64,000 nt of DNA from Malacoraja senta (lineage: Eukaryota). Shown piece by piece: positions 27 through 64,000 of the stretch; within the stretch, counting starts at the first letter, position 1, and each line of letters begins with the position of its first letter. Under the pieces are notes generated by a model. The model saw nothing but the letters and a program-made list of their open reading frames with translations. It was not told the origin of the DNA and ran no database searches. Both the position numbers and the translations under genes were made by a program. The DNA lies in assembly GCA_038087875.1 (NCBI GenBank), contig CM075987.1:25236001-25300000 (forward strand), read 5' to 3'.

Positions 27-584
27 AGGGCCTGTCCCACCAGCATGCGATTGCATGCATCTAGCGTGACCAAACGTGGTGGCTTGAGGCGTACGGCCTC
101 GCGGGGCCGGTCCCACTTCCAACCGCGGAGCCGTCTGGAGTTGTGCGGAGCTGGTCCCGACATCATACTCACCAATCAGCTGGGCAGGAGGCGGGCCGAC
201 TGAATTTGGACGTCGGGCGGTGACGTCATCGCGCAACAGCACGCCGGGCAGTGACGTCATCGCGCAATGCCACGCGCTAGGCGTACGCCATCAAGATGCT
301 GCATACGGCGTCAAGACGCTGCATACGATGTTGAGATGTTGCGTACGCCCGTCGAGGCGCTGCGTACGGCCTCAATGCGGCTGCGGGCCGACAGGCCGTT
401 GTCGCGCGGGATTTTCGGACAGTGCAAGATTTTTGGAGCCCCGCGCGATGTCGGGACCAGCCCCGCACAACTCCATACGCCTCCGGCGATCGAAGTGGGA
501 CCGGCCCCGCGAGGCCGTACGCCTCAAGCGACCACGTTTGTTCGCGCTAGACGCATGCTATCGCATGCTGGTGGGACAGGCCCT
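27..584. mobile_element. PIF/Harbinger-type MITE, family H1 (CpG-rich, ~140-bp imperfect TIRs)
   Basis: Starts AGGGCCTGTCCCAC, ends GTGGGACAGGCCCT; inverted complementarity extends ~140 bp; 3-bp TSD TCA at 24-26 and 585-587. Confidence 0.88.
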
Positions 585-13771: not shown

Positions 13772-13958
13772 TGTTTAAAAAGGAACTGCAGATGCTGGAA
13801 AATCGAAGGTAGACAAAAATGCTGGAGAAACTCAGCGGGTGAGGCAGCATCTATGGAGCGAAGGAAATAGGCAACGTTTCGGGCCGAAACGTCGCCTATT
13901 TCCTTCGCTCCATAGATGCTGCCTCACCCGCTGAGTTTCTCCAGCATTTTTGTCTACC
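13772..13958. mobile_element. Fold-back (palindromic) Penelope pLTR mini-insertion
   Basis: ~75-bp near-perfect inverted arms 13808-13958 centred on GTTTCGGGCCGAAAC; 14-bp TSD ATAAAATAATAGTA (13758-13771, 13959-13972). Confidence 0.88.
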
Positions 13959-27538: not shown

Positions 27539-27589
27539 AGGGTCAAAGAAAGAGCATTCACGTCGCGGCCCTGTCTCCACCAATCTTTC
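27539..27589 (+). ncRNA. Minimal HDV/CPEB3-like ribozyme
   Basis: P1 AGGGTC/GGCCCT, P2 GAAAGA/TCTTTC, P3 GCA/CGC (one mismatch), L3 TTCACGT, J1/4 GT, 5-nt P4 loop, J4/2 CCAA. Confidence 0.7.
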
Positions 27590-27711
27590 CACCACCACGC
27601 ACAGGAACCACAAGAAGGGACAAGACAAGCAACATTGTACGCAGATGCCGAGAAGTGTGTTCAGCTCTGGCTGAACAACTTCTAATCTTGTGTGTGGTCT
27701 CGATAAGAAGA
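27539..27711 (+). mobile_element. Short non-autonomous retroelement family B (HDV-ribozyme head, hairpins, (GAA)n tail)
   Basis: TSD AGCTGTTATC (27525-27534, 27712-27721); interrupts a Rex-like repeat; ends GATAAGAAGA. Confidence 0.8.
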
Positions 27712-27842: not shown

Positions 27843-28028
27843 TGTTCAAGAAGGAACTGCAGACGCTGGAGAATCGAAGGTAGACAAAATTGCTGGAGAC
27901 ACTCAGCTGGTGCGGCAGCATCTATGGAGCGAAGGAAATAGGCAACGTCTCGGGCCGAAACGTTGCCTATTTCCTTCGCTCCATAGACGCCGCCGCACCC
28001 GCTGAGTTTCTCCAGCAATTTTGTCTAC
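27843..28028. mobile_element. Fold-back Penelope pLTR mini-insertion
   Basis: Inverted arms GTAGACAAAATTGCTGGAG...CTCCAGCAATTTTGTCTAC centred on GTCTCGGGCCGAAAC. Confidence 0.82.
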
Positions 28029-52284: not shown

Positions 52285-53085
52285 GCTTAGAGTCATAGAG
52301 TGATACAGTGTGGAAACAGGCTCTTTGGCCCAACTTGCCCACACCGGCCAACATGTCCCGGCTACACTAGCCCCACCTGCCAGCATTTGGTTCATATCCC
52401 TCCAAACCTGTCCTAGCAAATGTACCTGTCTAACTGCTTCTTAACTGTCGGGATAGTCCCTGCCTCAAGGACCTCCCCTGGCAGCTCGTTCCATACACCC
52501 ACCCCCCTTTGTGTGAAAAAGTAACCCCTCATATTCCTATTAAATCTTTTCCCCTTCAACTTAAACCCATGTCCTCTGGTCCTCGATTTGCCTGGTCTGG
52601 GCAAGAGACTGTGCATCCACCCGATCTATTCCTCTCATGATTTTATACACCTCTATAAGATCACCCCTCATTCTCCTGCTCTCCAAGGAATAGAGTCCCA
52701 GCCTGCTCAACCTCTCCCTATAGTTCAGTCCCTCTAGACCTGGCAACATCCTCGTAAATCTTCTGTGTACCCTCTCCAGCTTGACAACATCTTTCCTCTA
52801 ACACCGCGCGCGCCCAGAACTGAACACAATACTCTAAATGTGGTAGACAAAAGTGCTGGAGAAACTCAGCGGGTGCGGCAGCATCTATGGAGCGAAGGGA
52901 ATAGGCAATGTTTCGGCCCGAACGTTGCCTATTTCCTTCGCTCCATAGATGCTGCCGCACCCGCTGAGTTTCTCCAGCACTTTTGTCTACCTTCGATTTT
53001 CCAGCATCTGCAGTTCCTGTTTCAACACTCTAAATGTGGCCTCACCAACGTCTTATTCAACTGCAACATGACCTCCCAACTTCTA
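52285..53085 (-). mobile_element. CR1/HER1 LINE 3' fragment hosting a fold-back pLTR
   Basis: [37 protein letters not shown]; palindromic pLTR insert 52844-53026 with 13-bp TSD ACTCTAAATGTGG. Confidence 0.9.
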
Positions 53086-55824: not shown

Positions 55825-56024
55825 NNNNNNNNNNNNNNNNNNNNNNNNNNNNNNNNNNNNNNNNNNNNNNNNNNNNNNNNNNNNNNNNNNNNNNNNNNNN
55901 NNNNNNNNNNNNNNNNNNNNNNNNNNNNNNNNNNNNNNNNNNNNNNNNNNNNNNNNNNNNNNNNNNNNNNNNNNNNNNNNNNNNNNNNNNNNNNNNNNNN
56001 NNNNNNNNNNNNNNNNNNNNNNNN
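55825..56024. other. Assembly gap (200 N)
   Basis: Run of N. Confidence 0.99.
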
Positions 56025-57302: not shown

Positions 57303-58557
57303 TTACGGTAATGTTGCTGCCTTTCAGCACCAGAGACCCGGGTTCAATCCCGACTACGGGTGCTGTCTTCACGGTTTGTACGTTCTCCCCGTGACCTGCA
57401 TTTATTTTCTCCGGGATCTCCAGTTTCCTCCCACACTCCAAAGACGTACAGGTTTGTATGTTAATTGGCTTGGTAAAACTGTAAATCGTAAAATTGTAAA
57501 TTTCCCGTGGAGTATCGACATAAGGTCATAAGGTCATAAGTGATAGGAGTAGAATTAGGCCATTTGGCCCAATAAGTCTACTCCGCCATCCACGGTTCTC
57601 TGGATACTTTCAAGAGAGAGCTAGATAGGGCTCTTAAAGATGGCGGAGTCAGGGGATATGGGGAGAAGGCAGGAACGGGGAACTGATTGGGGATAATCAG
57701 CCATGATCACATTGAATGGCGGTGCTGGCTCGAAGGGCCGAATGGCCTACTCCTGCACCTATTGTCTATTGTCTATTATCTAAATCATGGCTGCTCTATC
57801 TTCCCCTCTTAACCCCATTCTGAAGAAGGGTCTCGACACGAAATGTCACCGATTCCTTCTCTCCAGAGGTGCTGCCGGTCCCGCTGAGTTACTGTAGCGT
57901 TTTGTGTCTACCTTCTCTACTCTGGTCATGGTTTGCAGGGTCAAACATGCAGCATTCCTTGCTGATCATTTGAAAGCACTGTGTGACTGGCCAGCTTTAC
58001 CTGCTGACAATTTGAACGGTGCAAGCCTGCTGATAGATCTCATTTTCCATCCACTGCTCTGTGCTGAATGAGCTCATTTAACCGGGACCACTTGTAATGG
58101 TGATGCATTGGTCCAACTTATCTGGATTTATGAAAGGGAATAGAATGCAGCTGTTAACCAGAAAACGCAGCAGGAAGCTGCCTTCAGGGGGGTGACCTGT
58201 ATTGAGGGAGGTCGGAGTTTCAATGCAATCCGCAATGTAAAATCTCCAGTAACATCTTCAGAGGTGTGGCACGGTGGCGCAGCGGTAGAGTTGCTGCCTT
58301 ACAGACCCCGACTACTGGTGCTGTCTGTACGGTGTTTGTATGTGCTCCTGCTGACCTGCATGGGTTTTCTCCGAGATCTTCGCTTTCCTCCCACATTCCA
58401 AAGACGTGCAGGTTTGTAGGTGAATTGGCTTGGTGCAAGTGTACACTGTGGGCGCACCACCTGGCTCAAATATTCCACTGTCTAGACCACTCCGGGAATA
58501 ACACCCAGTTCAGAGTGGAGATGGTGCTTAATTTTGTGATAGGGTGTTTCCATGCAG

Positions 58558-58895
58558 TAAATCTAAATCTGGGTCCAAATCAGGATTTGAATCCGGATCA
58601 GAATCGGGATCTGAATCTGAGTCCAGATCTGAATCCGAATTTGGACCTGGATCGGAATCTGGATCTGGATCGGAATCCAGATCCGAATCTGGATCTGAAT
58701 CCGGATCTGAATCTGGATCAGAAACCGAATCAGAATCTGGATCACAACCTGGATCTGGACCTGAATCTGAATCTGAATCTGGATCTTGATCTGGATGTGG
58801 ATCTAGATCGAAATGTAAATCTGGAACTGAATATAAATCTGAACCAAAATCTGGACCTAAACCAAAATCTTGACCTTAACATAAATCTGAATCCT
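58558..58895. repeat. Degenerate hexamer tandem array (ATCTGR)n
   Basis: ~55 imperfect units ATCTGA/ATCTGG/ATCCGA etc., phase kept throughout. Confidence 0.9.
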
Positions 58896-61150: not shown

Positions 61151-63395
61151 AGTGATATAAGGCACAGATATTCTCTGGCACAATGCAACTCAAGGCACTT
61201 CTTGAAGCAACGTTATCCGTGACTTAGTTATGGCCACTGATCAAATCTCTACACATTCACAACCCTCTTCCAGAACTAGCAACACAATTTTCCACATGGA
61301 TAGAAGCTCTTGTGTTCATAAGTTCAAAGGTGATAGGAGAAGAATTTAGGGCATTCGGCCCATCAAGTCTCCTCCGCCCCTCAATCATGGCTGATCTATC
61401 TCTCCCTCCTAACCCCATTCTCATGCCTTCTCCCCATAACCCCTGACACCCGTACTAATCAAGAATCTATCTATCTCTGGCTTAAAAATACCCATTGACT
61501 TGGCCTCCACAGCCTTCTGTGGCAATGAATTTCTCCTCATCTCCTTCCTGAAGCAACATCCATTAATTCTGAGGTCCTAGACTCTCCCACTAGTGGAAAC
61601 ATCCTCTCCACATCCACTCTATCCATTGGTATTGGTGAAGCAAAGACAACCAGGAAGCAATGCATGGATAACATCTATGATTGCTGCTATCAATAAGTGA
61701 GTCGAATAAAGTACAGACCTCTGCTGCAAGATTGTGCTTTCACTTAAGCCCGGTCTTACAAAATAATGATAGATTGGATGTGGGGAGGATGTTTCCAATA
61801 GTGGGAGAGTCTGGGACCAGATGGTATAGCCTCAGGACAAAAGGATGTACCTTCAGAATGGAGATGAGGAGGGTGGTTTCTTGAACCAGAGGGTGGTGAA
61901 TCTGTGGAATTCATTGCCACAGATGATGGAGGAGGCTTAGTCATTGGGTATTTTTAAAGCAGAGATTGAAAGGTTCTTGATTAGTAAGGGCATGAAAGGT
62001 TGTGGGGAGAATGGGGTTGAGAAGGGAAATGAGATCAGCCGTGATAGAATGGAGGAGCAGACTCGATGGGCCAAATGGCCTAATTCCACTCCTATTTCTT
62101 CAAGATAAAGTTGAAGGCTTGCAAGTTCATTCCTTCAGGAATATGTCAAGGTTCCCCTTGTTCAAGGTACTGTAGGTTCTTCCACAAGACTTTGGGGTGA
62201 AAGGGTGGATGGCCATTTCTGAAGGATGGCTCTTGGACATGCCTGTTGCCTGTTTCCATATGGCTTTGTCAGTGTAGTGCAAACCTGCCTGAACGCAGCC
62301 CAATGTGAATAACTACCAGGGCATGAGATGGTGGAAGTAAGCTAGGACCTTCTGTGTCTGTTGCTCGTCCACGAGTGATGATAAATACATGCTGTGTGTG
62401 TTTGTGTATCGTTCCCCCATAAATCCGGCAAAATTGACATATTCCTCGCAGGTAATGCAAAATCATCAGAGGAATAGATCGGGCAGATGCACAGAGTCTC
62501 TTGCCCAGAGTATGGGGATCGAGCACTGGAGGACATACAGTAGGTTTAAGCTGAGGGGGGAAAGATTTAATAGAAACATAGAAAATAGGTGCAGGAGGAG
62601 GCCATTCGGCCCTTCGAGCCAGCACCGCCATTCATTGATCGTCCCCTATCAATAACCCGTGCCTGCCTTCTCCCCATACCCCTTGACTCCACTAGCCCCT
62701 AGAGCTCTATCTAACTCTCTCGTAAATCCATCCAGTGACTTGGCCTCCACTGCCCTCTGTGGCAGGGAATTCCATAAATTCACAACTCTCTGGGTGAAAA
62801 CGTTTTTTCTCACCTCAGTCTTAAATGACCTCCCCTTTATTCTAAGACTGTGGCCCCTGGAACCTGAGGGGTAACATTTTCACACACAGGGTGGTGGGAG
62901 TATGGAACAAGGAGGTAGTTGAGGCAGAGACTTTGCCTCAACCACAGGAGGTAGTTGAGGCAGAGACTTTCCCAGCATTTAAGAAACAGTTAGACAGGTG
63001 CATGGATAGAACAGGTTTGGAGGGATATGGACCAAACGCGGACAGGTTGGACGAGTGCAGCTGGGACATGTTGGCCGGTGTGGGCAAGTTGGGCCGAAGG
63101 GCCTGTTTCCACGCTGTATAACTCTATGACTCTAATTCAAGTACTTGTCTAATACTTCTTAAATGTGTGTGAGAATCTCTGCCTCCACAAATGTTCCCCT
63201 CAGGCAGAACATTCCAACTACTAACCCCCCACTGGGTGAAAAAAGATCTTCCTCAGATCACCTCTAAACATTTCATCTTTTGCCACAAACCTTTAACCGG
63301 ACTTTACTGGTTTTACACTAAACTTTATTCCCTTTATCAAGTATCTGCACACTGTGGATGGTTCGATTGTAAGCATGTGCAGTATAGTCTTTTCA

Positions 63396-63581
63396 CTTCT
63401 TCTTCTTTTTGTGTCCAAATGTTGACCTCGCTGTCATCGTCCGTCCTGAAAAGGACACGAGCTTCCGGCGACAATCAGTGGGAGCCATCACTTGTCGCAA
63501 TAGATGATGGTGGTAGCAGAATTAGCTCGGGATACTTCCAGTTTCCAGCCCCGTGACGTGGACGCTTCTGCTATGGGGCCC
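63396..63581 (-). mobile_element. Short non-autonomous retroelement family C (CPEB3-like ribozyme head, hairpins, (GAA)n tail)
   Basis: Interrupts a Rex-type 3' UTR (GTATAGTCTTT...GCACGCAACAAAAAGCTTTTCA); tail AAAAAGAAGAAGAAG; no clear TSD. Confidence 0.75.
63514..63581 (-). ncRNA. HDV/CPEB3-like self-cleaving ribozyme
   Basis: GGGCCCC-A-TAGCAGAA-GCG-TCCACGT-CAC-GGGGCT-GG-AAACTGGAAGTATCCCGAG-CTAA-TTCTGCTA: 8-bp P2 perfect, P1.1 CC/GG, J4/2 CTAA. Confidence 0.8.
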
Positions 63582-64000
63582 GATGGGCACGCAACAAAAA
63601 GCTTTTCATTGCACCTAAAGCATTAAAACTAAAACTAATCTAAACTAGACTAACATACTCCAGCTTTAGATTCTTCTGGTATGGGGAAAAGATTTCAGCT
63701 GCCTACCAGATCTATGCCTCTCATAATTTAGATAGCAGGGAGATAGATGTTGCACTAACAAAAATACAAAGCTGCGATCATTCAAACGTTGTTGAGGTAG
63801 GTTTATGGGGAGCATGCAATATAAGTCTCAAACAAAACATATAAGAGGAATTTAAAAACCCCCCACAGTGAATGGGAAACTGTGAAAGGCCCATTCTTCT
63901 TCTTTTACAGACACGTCGTACGTGCAAGGTTGCTCGTGAAAATCAATGTGATGATCCAGTAATCTCTCATTATAACGGAGCATAGAGGGGGCGAAATGGT

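What the first reader, a model, noticed from the sequence alone, without database searches (positions are those of the whole stretch)
63514..63581. Ribozyme head nearly identical to the mammalian CPEB3 ribozyme core inside a mobile element
Seen (minus strand): GGGCCCCATAGCAGAAGCGTCCACGTCACGGGGCTGGAAACTGGAAGTATCCCGAGCTAATTCTGCTA. The human CPEB3 ribozyme, as I recall it, reads GGGGGCCACAGCAGAAGCGTTCACGTCGCAGCCCCTGT...GCGAATTCTGCTG: AGCAGAAGCGTyCACGTCrC and AATTCTGCT are shared, including the P2 stem sequence, which is normally free to vary. The terminal P2 pair (C-G vs T-A), P1 and P1.1 (TTC/GT vs TCC/GG) differ in a pairing-compatible way. Defects: P3 has a G>A change, P1 3' strand is 6 nt, P4 is degraded. 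Inference: the CPEB3 intronic ribozyme could be a domesticated head of a related RTE-type element that is still mobile in elasmobranchs.
Basis: partly seen in the sequence, partly recalled or inferred. Interest (0 to 1): 0.82.

Follow-up and report, generated by a model that had tools for sequence, protein, structure and literature searches.

The report
CPEB3-type ribozyme heads skate retrotransposons
The flagged bases are a slightly decayed copy of a self-cutting RNA motif that starts a small jumping element in a skate genome, and its relatives there look so much like the "mammal-only" CPEB3 ribozyme that they may show where that ribozyme came from.

Summary
The quoted sequence is there. Rfam's mammalian CPEB3-ribozyme model (RF00622) is the only family to hit it: 32.1 bits against a cut-off of 35, local E 9.7e-7. 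It is the 67-nt 5' head (63514-63580, minus strand; 63581 is flank) of a 185-nt SINE-like non-LTR element ending in (GAA)n.

The window copy is dead-looking, with one CpG-type G>A breaking P3. The family is not: 400 exact core matches, copies about 96% alike, starts at ribozyme G1, target-site duplications, and an intact copy scoring 38.3 bits.

The genome, a skate by RAG1, holds at least six families of such heads, with 1,004 exact copies of the 15-nt core and scores up to 64 bits. One family heads a 3.15-kb RTE-like element (APE+RT ORF) whose last 21 nt equal family C's.

Covariation supports the HDV-type double pseudoknot. One rare, old family ("fam3") matches the mammalian consensus at about 88% of positions, including identical P1 5' strand and P4 stems.

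A phage ribozyme with the same P3-L3 core scores only 24.6 bits, so the core alone can converge.

Self-cleavage and descent of the mammalian ribozyme from such an element remain untested.

The parts
63396..63580 (-). Decayed copy of the 'family C' SINE-like non-LTR element (185 nt): ribozyme head, unrelated body, 3' module and (GAA)n tail. It has a 10-nt deletion near the 3' end and no clean target-site duplication.
   Evidence: Genome matches start at query position 21 = 63580. Alignment of 20 copies and their flanks.
63514..63580 (-). [quoted passage not shown] Predicted cleavage lies between 63581 and 63580.
   Evidence: RF00622 at 32.1 bits. It differs from the family majority only at 63554. 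The fold is supported by covariation across families.
63575..63580 (-). P1 5' strand GGCCCC. G1 (63580) forms a G.U wobble with 63547.
   Evidence: Read. Two pairs are compensated relative to the Rfam model.
63566..63573 (-). P2 5' strand UAGCAGAA. It pairs with 63514-63521 (8 bp) and forms the pseudoknot with P1.
   Evidence: helix 2: 88.4% of cells paired, 5 of 8 pairs with changes on both sides.
63553..63565 (-). P3 (GCG / CAC) enclosing L3 UCCACGU. A at 63554 breaks the middle P3 pair (G in the family).
   Evidence: 'v' marks. In one search, 91 of the 100 listed family sites have G and 9 have A..
63547..63552 (-). P1 3' strand GGGGCU.
63545..63546 (-). GG that can pair with CC of L3 (63560-63561) to form P1.1.
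   Evidence: Read. This is inference from the HDV fold. It was not supported by the count, because family C is shifted by one column in that alignment.
63526..63544 (-). P4 region: short imperfect hairpin (CUGG / CC-AG with one bulged G).
   Evidence: Read. P4 varies wholly between families and is absent in fam5.
63522..63525 (-). J4/2 CUAA. C at 63525 is in the place of the catalytic cytosine.
   Evidence: This C and the two A's are nearly invariant or invariant in the 29-sequence alignment.
63514..63521 (-). P2 3' strand UUCUGCUA.
63396..63416 (-). 3' terminal module and (GAA)n tail. In intact family copies the last 21 nt are identical to the 3' end of the RTE-like element.
   Evidence: L037 176-196 = L051 3215-3235, 100%. 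Also.
63291..63395 (.). Older host repeat into which the element inserted (downstream side). The upstream side is about 63581-63621.
   Evidence: L032 and L033 match through query position 310. Contigs of other species join 63377 to 63587 without the insert (table 5).
27540..27711 (+). Second ribozyme-headed SINE-like element in the window (P4-less 'fam5' type; head about 27540-27590), with a (GAA)n-type tail and flanking direct repeat AGCTGTTATC.
   Evidence: sequence. One search gives a partial RF00622 hit, 25.1 bits, at 27539-27572.

Best explanation
The flagged bases are the 5' head of a non-autonomous (SINE-like) non-LTR retroelement. The head is an HDV-type double-pseudoknot self-cleaving ribozyme of the same sequence family as the mammalian CPEB3 ribozyme.

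Proposed working:
1. The element has no recognisable promoter and is transcribed as part of longer host or neighbour transcripts.
2. The first 67 nt fold (P1, P1.1, P2, P3, P4) and the J4/2 cytosine catalyses cleavage just 5' of G1. The element RNA is thereby freed with a defined 5' end.
3. Its 3' end, identical over 21 nt to that of a 3.15-kb RTE-like element, is used in trans by that element's endonuclease/reverse transcriptase for target-primed reverse transcription. This gives copies that start at G1, end in (GAA)n and are flanked by 9-14-bp duplications.

The window copy is an inactive-looking relic, with one CpG-type G>A in P3 and a 3' deletion.

Shown: sequence, copy number, boundaries, duplications, covariation, shared 3' end, covariance-model scores.
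Inferred: catalysis, read-through transcription, trans-mobilisation.
For: Covariance-model hits
- RF00622 is the only Rfam family to hit the window copy and a good copy (61.3 bits, E up to 10 allowed).
- In the genome, 51 of 59 scored candidates match at E<=0.001 and 39 are over the cut-off, best 64.2 bits.
- An intact family C copy scores 38.3 bits.

Copy number
- The core 15-mer has 1,004 exact sites against 0 for the reversed control.
- The first 20 of those sites are all (20 of 20) P4-less heads with unrelated upstream flanks.
- The family C 22-mer has 400 sites against 0 for the control.

Element boundaries and age
- 18 of 20 fetched family C copies start GGCCCC and 2 start one base shorter.
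- 11 of 20 have an exact direct repeat of 9-14 nt abutting both ends, and 3 more have 6-7 nt.
- fam5 copies likewise carry duplications abutting the first G.
- The 17 copies outside the shared host repeat (L034-L050) average 96.1% pairwise identity. Two identical copies have different duplications.

Fold
- On 29 sequences, 81.1% of cells pair against 32-45% when the partners are slid. 18 of 28 pairs change on both sides. 0 of 500 shuffles reach the observed covariation score. This includes the P2 pseudoknot.

Autonomous partner
- One 940-aa ORF with Exo_endo_phos and RVT_1, an SSR tail and a duplication.
- A second copy has a 1014-aa open frame.
- 100% identity of the last 21 nt with family C.

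Other species
- The element, ending at 63580 with heterogeneous flanks, is in contigs of three other coded organisms.
Against: - No cleavage or RNA 5'-end data: no listed run is on record as RNA.
- The window copy itself is under the Rfam cut-off and has a broken P3.
- Family C has a 6-bp P1 (7 bp in the Rfam consensus) and a poor P4, so its rate may be low.
- The nested MFE fold of the window copy is no better than shuffles (z -0.03), as expected for a pseudoknot but not supportive.
- One column pair of P1.1 never pairs in the alignment.
- 6 of 20 family C copies, the window's included, show no exact flanking repeat.
- RTE-clade placement rests on architecture only.
Confidence: 0.85

Rival explanations
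1. The likeness to the mammalian CPEB3 ribozyme is convergence. Any efficient HDV-type fold is pushed towards the same P3-L3 core and J4/2, and the skate retroelement ribozymes share no descent with the mammalian one.
For: A phage-like IMG/VR contig carries an HDV-like fold with the identical 15-nt P3-L3 core and the same P1 as family C. P2 shares a common NRGNAGRA pattern in all skate families, so it is not free. Family C exceeds the phage baseline (24.6 bits) by only 8-14 bits.
Against: fam1, fam2 and fam3 score 39-64 bits, against 24.6 for the phage control. By my hand count from the alignment lines, the column majority of the 5 fam3 copies differs from the Rfam consensus at 8 substitutions plus 1 insertion in 67 positions. 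Three substitutions and the insertion are in the L4 loop, and two are a compensating P2 pair. The 7-bp P4 stem is identical although P4 differs completely among the other skate families. The P1 5' strand is identical in L014, while the P1 3' strand majority has one C>U (position 43, still a G.U pair). No other HDV-like Rfam family hits.
Confidence: 0.2
2. The relationship is real but runs the other way. An old host ribozyme, ancestral to the CPEB3 one, was captured as a 5' module by retroelements in cartilaginous fishes.
For: The head sits on elements with unrelated bodies and even different tails: (GAA)n in family C and fam5, A-rich in the fam3 copy L014. This shows that it moves as a module.
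Against: [quoted passage not shown] None of the 5 fam3 copies lies on a contig that holds a CPEB ZZ-domain exon. HDV-like heads are a known, widespread trait of RTE and other non-LTR elements (PMC6765202 and PMC7761336, passages).
Confidence: 0.1
3. The fold is conserved for another reason (RT binding, translation start, RNA stability) and the uniform 5' ends come from transcription initiation at G1, not from self-cleavage.
For: No cleavage data here. From my recollection of Ruminski et al. 2011, which is not held in the library, such ribozymes also promote translation initiation. PMC7761336 (passage) says the same.
Against: The cytosine in the catalytic place and the flanking A's are kept in all six families. 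P1 starts at the element's first base in three families with different P1 sequences. No tRNA, 5S or 7SL promoter-type head was found.
Confidence: 0.05
4. The flagged match is a chance resemblance in a repeat.
For: It is under the curated Rfam cut-off.
Against: E 1.2e-4 in the window. There are hundreds of copies, and intact ones pass the cut-off. All 80 fetched metagenome 15-mer loci and 49 of 50 viral ones lack the fold.
Confidence: 0.01

Closest known systems
Mammalian CPEB3 ribozyme (Rfam RF00622)
   Same: Same fold order. Identical P3-L3-P3, J1/2 A and UGUCA junction, and a CGAA or CUAA J4/2. Skate fam1-fam5 score 37-64 bits on the mammalian model. The fam3 majority is about 88% identical to the consensus, with the same P1 5' strand and P4 stems.
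   Different: The skate motifs are multi-copy (hundreds to thousands), lie at the 5' end of retroelements and are not in a CPEB gene. They come from a skate, whereas the CPEB3 ribozyme is described as conserved in mammals and not found in other vertebrates (PMC2950038, passage). Family C has a 6-bp P1, a CC/GG P1.1 and an unrelated P4. The window copy is under the cut-off.
HDV-like ribozymes at the 5' ends of non-LTR retrotransposons (R2, RTE, Baggins, L1Tc)
   Same: Position at the element's first base, with the presumed role of freeing the element RNA from an upstream co-transcript. RTE-like partner with a single APE+RT ORF and an SSR tail (PMC6765202 and PMC7761336 passages; PMC2887409 abstract for RTE features).
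   Different: In the held library I found no report of such heads sharing primary sequence with the CPEB3 ribozyme. Rfam keeps other retroelement HDV-like ribozymes as separate families, and none of them hits here.
L1Tc / NARTc of Trypanosoma cruzi
   Same: An autonomous LINE and a short non-autonomous partner both begin with an HDV-like ribozyme (PMC3383444, abstract in the search listing).
   Different: There the shared 77 nt are also an internal promoter. Here family C shares with the LINE only the ribozyme core and the last 21 nt, and no promoter is shown.
Minimal (P4-less) HDV-like and theta ribozymes of phages
   Same: fam5 lacks P4, as minimal HDV-like ribozymes do. A phage-like contig (L249/L264) has the same P3-L3 core.
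   Different: The setting is phage, between genes, and the contig scores only 24.6 bits on RF00622. The theta ribozyme paper was seen only as a listing (PMC10879173).

Membership tests
HDV-like self-cleaving ribozymes (fold class) | Nested double pseudoknot in the order P1-P2-P3-P3'-P1'-P4-P4'-P2' | tested here: met
   81.1% of cells paired against 32-45% with slid partners. 18 of 28 pairs change on both sides. 0 of 500 shuffles reach the observed score.
HDV-like self-cleaving ribozymes (fold class) | Cytosine in J4/2 followed by two A's (catalytic C; role recalled from HDV biochemistry) | tested here: met
   this C is present in at least 90% of the 29 sequences, and of the two A's one is invariant and one is at least 90%. 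In the window the C is at 63525.
HDV-like self-cleaving ribozymes (fold class) | Cleavage site at the base of P1, first pair G.U | tested here: met
   Element copies start at G1 of P1, and G1 faces U in family C, fam1 and the main fam5 type. The L021-type fam5 subfamily has G-C instead.
HDV-like self-cleaving ribozymes (fold class) | Intact 3-bp P3 | tested here: not met
   The window copy has C.A in the middle pair. The family state is G: 91 of the 100 listed sites.
HDV-like self-cleaving ribozymes (fold class) | Self-cleavage activity | not testable with these tools
   Needs a transcription and cleavage assay.
Rfam RF00622 CPEB3_ribozyme | Score at or above the gathering cut-off of 35 bits | tested here: not met
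   The window copy scores 32.1 bits. Relatives meet the cut-off: L036 at 38.3, and 39 of 51 genome matches, up to 64.2.
Rfam RF00622 CPEB3_ribozyme | Single conserved copy in an intron of the CPEB3 gene of mammals | tested here: not met
   The genome is a skate. The motif is multi-copy. CPEB ZZ-domain exons lie on contigs C15, C17, C2128 and C2259, and none of these holds a fam3 copy.
RTE-clade non-LTR retrotransposons (the fam1 partner) | One ORF with an AP-endonuclease and a reverse transcriptase, about 3.2 kb, SSR at the 3' end | tested here: met
   940-aa ORF, PF03372/PF14529 and PF00078, element of about 3.15 kb, (GAA)n tail. The features are as listed in the PMC2887409 abstract. The 3' UTR here (about 220 nt) is longer than the 'extremely short' one described there.
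RTE-clade non-LTR retrotransposons (the fam1 partner) | RT groups with RTE references in a tree | not tested
   No named RTE reference sequences were at hand. Homologues at 46-63% identity in amphioxus, echinoderms, teleosts, Anolis and insects carry only generic names.
Classical SINEs | Head derived from tRNA, 5S or 7SL with a Pol III promoter | tested here: not met
   no tRNA, 5S or 7SL family hit over 63300-63800, even at E up to 10. This is why I call the element 'SINE-like'.

The most novel reading that the evidence does not exclude
The mammalian CPEB3 ribozyme is a domesticated 5' head of a non-LTR retroelement of the fam3 type. An element of this ribozyme family inserted into a CPEB3 intron in an early mammal, its body decayed, and only the self-cleaving head was kept. 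The family is therefore at least as old as jawed vertebrates, or it travelled between lineages with RTE-like elements, and it is still mobile in skates.
Probability: 0.55. Interest if true: 0.85.

Novelty: new member of a known kind. Interest (0 to 1): 0.75.

Why it matters
The CPEB3 ribozyme is one of very few self-cleaving RNAs conserved in mammals. It is linked to CPEB3 expression and memory (PMC10274809, passages). It is described as absent from other vertebrates (PMC2950038, passage), and I found nothing on its origin in the held library.

A large, diverse and recently mobile family of the same sequence type on skate retroelements gives a concrete source hypothesis. That hypothesis can be tested by genome searches and by looking for element remnants beside the mammalian ribozyme.

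The family also supplies natural variants (7- or 6-bp P1, with or without P4, CGAA, CUAA or CCAA in J4/2) for structure-function work. It adds a vertebrate case of a ribozyme-headed LINE with short ribozyme-headed non-autonomous elements; family C shares the LINE's last 21 nt.

Tried and rejected
- **Metagenome scan for the 15-nt core.** All 80 fetched loci are bacterial-looking chance matches without P1 or P2, so nothing was learned about other animals. It used the only metagenome scan.
- **Relatives of the RTE-like ORF in viral contigs.** None found.
- **Sequencing runs.** No RNA holder is listed. All runs are contigs, so there is no evidence on expression or RNA 5' ends.
- **MFE folding of the window copy.** z -0.03. 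This is uninformative for a pseudoknot.
- **Genome DNA searches with fam3 copies.** They were dominated by other repeats. Only 4 ribozyme-part matches came back, including the query itself.
- **L016 36-mer with up to 3 mismatches.** It finds only L016 and L014, so no skate copy equals the mammalian consensus over that stretch.
- **CPEB ZZ-domain exons.** They lie on other contigs than the fam3 copies. This is weak evidence, because two of those contigs are small scaffolds.
- **Protein atlas.** It gave only 'Chordata/Arthropoda'.
- **Literature.**
  - Webb et al. 2009, Webb and Luptak 2011 and Ruminski et al. 2011 are not held. What I say of them is recalled, and a prior note of CPEB3-like retroelement heads in them cannot be excluded.
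  - Searches were badly designed (generic terms swamped the lists) and show nothing.
  - Rfam's full hit list and Dfam/Repbase could not be consulted.
- **Earlier findings of this scan.** Nothing on this genome.

Full report
**Observation.** A gathering-threshold Rfam scan of the window finds nothing. A permissive scan of 63300-63800 against all 4227 families gives one ribozyme hit: RF00622, the mammalian CPEB3 ribozyme, over the whole model at 63515-63591(-), with 32.1 bits against a cut-off of 35 and E 9.7e-7. Over the whole window its E is 1.2e-4. The alignment shows a 6-bp P1 with two pairs compensated relative to the model, a C.A mismatch in the middle of P3, an identical L3 apart from one base, and an identical 3' stretch AAUUCUGCU. 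The nested MFE fold is no better than shuffles, which says little for a pseudoknot.

**What the locus is.** A genome search with 63100-63600(-) returns 41 matches, with 40 of about 5,494 candidates scored. Nearly all begin at query position 21, which is 63580.

Among the 20 fetched copies:
- 18 start GGCCCC and 2 start one base shorter.
- They are about 189-199 nt long and end in ...GACACGAAAAGAAGAAG.
- 11 of 20 have an exact 9-14-nt direct repeat abutting both ends. Three more have 6-7 nt. Six have none, the window copy among them.
- The 17 copies outside the shared host repeat (L034-L050) are on average 96.1% identical. Two identical copies have different duplications.

The window copy (63580-63396) sits in an older repeat. 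Contigs of other species join that repeat across the insertion site. The window's ribozyme differs from the family majority at one position, 63554 (A for G, a CpG-type change). The family 22-mer occurs 400 times against 0 for the reversed control. Of the 100 sites listed, 91 have G and 9 have A. An intact copy, L036, scores 38.3 bits, over the cut-off. No tRNA, 5S or 7SL head is detectable, so I call the element SINE-like.

**The wider family.** RF00622 run on the window's own 1.94-Gb genome gives 51 matches at E<=0.001 among only 59 scored candidates. Of these, 39 are over the cut-off, and the best is 64.2 bits. By eye the 30 fetched loci fall into five further groups:
- fam1: 44-64 bits.
- fam2: 51-60 bits.
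- fam3: 39-51 bits.
- fam4: 38-48 bits.
- fam5: 37-44 bits, lacking P4.

All share GCGUUCACGUCGC, the UGU junction and a C-N-A-A J4/2, and differ in P1, P2 and P4. The 15-mer core has 1,004 exact sites against 0 for the control. An unbiased sample of the first 20 sites is 20 of 20 fam5-type heads with unrelated upstream DNA. The window holds such a copy too, at 27540-27711.

On a 29-sequence alignment the double-pseudoknot structure pairs 81.1% of cells, against 32-45% with slid partners. Changes on both sides occur in 18 of 28 pairs, and 0 of 500 shuffles reach the observed covariation score. P2, the pseudoknot helix that Rfam's model does not contain, pairs in 88.4% of cells, with 5 of 8 pairs covarying. 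One of the two P1.1 column pairs never pairs. Family C is shifted by one column there.

**The autonomous partner.**
- fam1 heads a 3.15-kb element (L051): ribozyme, then one 940-aa ORF with Exo_endo_phos and RVT_1, about 220 nt of 3' UTR, a (GAA)n tail and a 12-bp duplication.
- A second copy has a 1014-aa open frame.
- Only 10 sites match the fam1 head 42-mer with up to 2 mismatches, as expected if most LINE copies are 5'-truncated.
- The architecture matches what PMC2887409 (abstract) gives for the RTE clade. I did not build a tree.
- Homologues at 46-63% identity occur in amphioxus, echinoderms, teleosts, Anolis and insects.
- Family C shares with this element only the ribozyme core and, at 100%, the last 21 nt. 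From this I infer trans-mobilisation.

**Host.** The genome encodes a single-exon RAG1 that is 96% identical to a skate's, 84% to other rays and 80-81% to sharks. Words of the element occur in runs of seven other coded organisms. Contigs of three of them were laid and cover 63416-63580, with heterogeneous sequence beyond 63580.

**Relation to the mammalian ribozyme.** No other Rfam family, including the other HDV-like ones, hits either the window copy or a good copy even at E up to 10.

The closest family is not the flagged one but fam3, with five old, decayed copies (and L016). I counted by hand from the cmscan lines. The column majority of the five copies differs from the consensus (positions 12-78) at positions 20, 26, 34, 43, 58-60 (plus one inserted base) and 73. 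That is about 88% identity, or 92% outside the L4 loop. The 26/73 change is a compensating P2 pair. The P1 5' strand GGGGGCC (L014) and both strands of the 7-bp P4 stem, CAGAUUC/GAAUCUG, are identical. P4 differs entirely among the other skate families, and L4 is the part that varies among mammals (PMC8233481, passage).

**A control found in passing cuts the other way.** One of 50 viral-contig sites with the same 15-mer folds as an HDV-like ribozyme, with the same P3-L3 core and the same P1 as family C. It lies between genes of a phage-like contig. It scores only 24.6 bits. So the core can recur without the rest. Family C alone (32-38 bits) is only modest evidence of kinship. The helix-level identity of fam3 is what makes common descent the better reading; I put it near 0.8. 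Direction and domestication are untested. None of the fam3 copies lies on a contig with a CPEB ZZ-domain exon.

**Literature.** HDV-like ribozymes at the 5' ends of RTE and other non-LTR elements, and on some SINEs, are established (PMC6765202 and PMC7761336, passages; PMC3383444, abstract). One review states that the CPEB3 ribozyme is conserved in mammals and not found in other vertebrates (PMC2950038, passage). Searches for 'CPEB3 ribozyme' with 'retrotransposon' (21 papers), 'CPEB3-like' with 'ribozyme' (1 paper), 'HDV-like' with RTE and SINE (4 papers) and 'HDV-like' with 'shark' (2 papers) turned up no report of CPEB3-type heads on retroelements. The three most relevant papers are not held, and Rfam's and Dfam's own hit lists could not be seen, so prior knowledge cannot be excluded.

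**Verdict.** The mechanism is a known kind: a ribozyme-terminated non-LTR element with a non-autonomous partner. The sequence-level tie to the CPEB3 ribozyme appears unreported, and it makes that ribozyme's origin testable.

Noticed in passing
window 27540-27711 (+): A second ribozyme-headed short element, of the P4-less fam5 type, with a (GAA)n-type tail and flanking repeat AGCTGTTATC. Its family holds most of the 1,004 exact core sites in the genome.
   Followed up: partly
L249 / L264 1497-1565 (-), IMG/VR contig of 53.8 kb: A well-formed HDV-like ribozyme with the same P3-L3 core and the same P1 as family C. Its parts are P1 GGCCCC/GGGGCU, a 7-bp P2, a 10-bp P4 and a CUAA J4/2. It lies between genes of a phage-like contig, antisense and just upstream of an XRE-type repressor gene. 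RF00622 gives 24.6 bits.
   Followed up: partly
all families, directly 3' of P2 (window 63505-63513): A conserved ACCAC(C) motif follows the ribozyme in five of the six families (CCAAAC in fam1). In fam3 about 35 nt after P2 are shared before the copies diverge. Its function is unknown.
   Followed up: no
L011 / L052 (G000:C8, 5' end of a fam1 copy): Two extra partial copies of the ribozyme's P2-P3 part stand in tandem upstream of the complete head. This may be template switching at the RNA 5' end.
   Followed up: no
L014 (G000:C3:83740464-83740728): The fam3 copy with a target duplication (ATAGTTGT) ends in an A-rich tail, not (GAA)n. Its 3' half matches dozens of other loci that lack the ribozyme head. 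So the head seems to be combined with different bodies and tails.
   Followed up: partly
window about 55830-56020: A run of N (an assembly gap) shows as X in all frames.
   Followed up: no
window 27881-28027, 13830-13936, 52865-52969: Hairpin repeats hit plant miRNA-precursor models on both strands, well under their cut-offs. They are probably palindromic MITE-like repeats, not miRNA genes.
   Followed up: no
window 58530-58880: Long imperfect tandem repeat that reads as D/L/N/P/S-rich frames on both strands.
   Followed up: no
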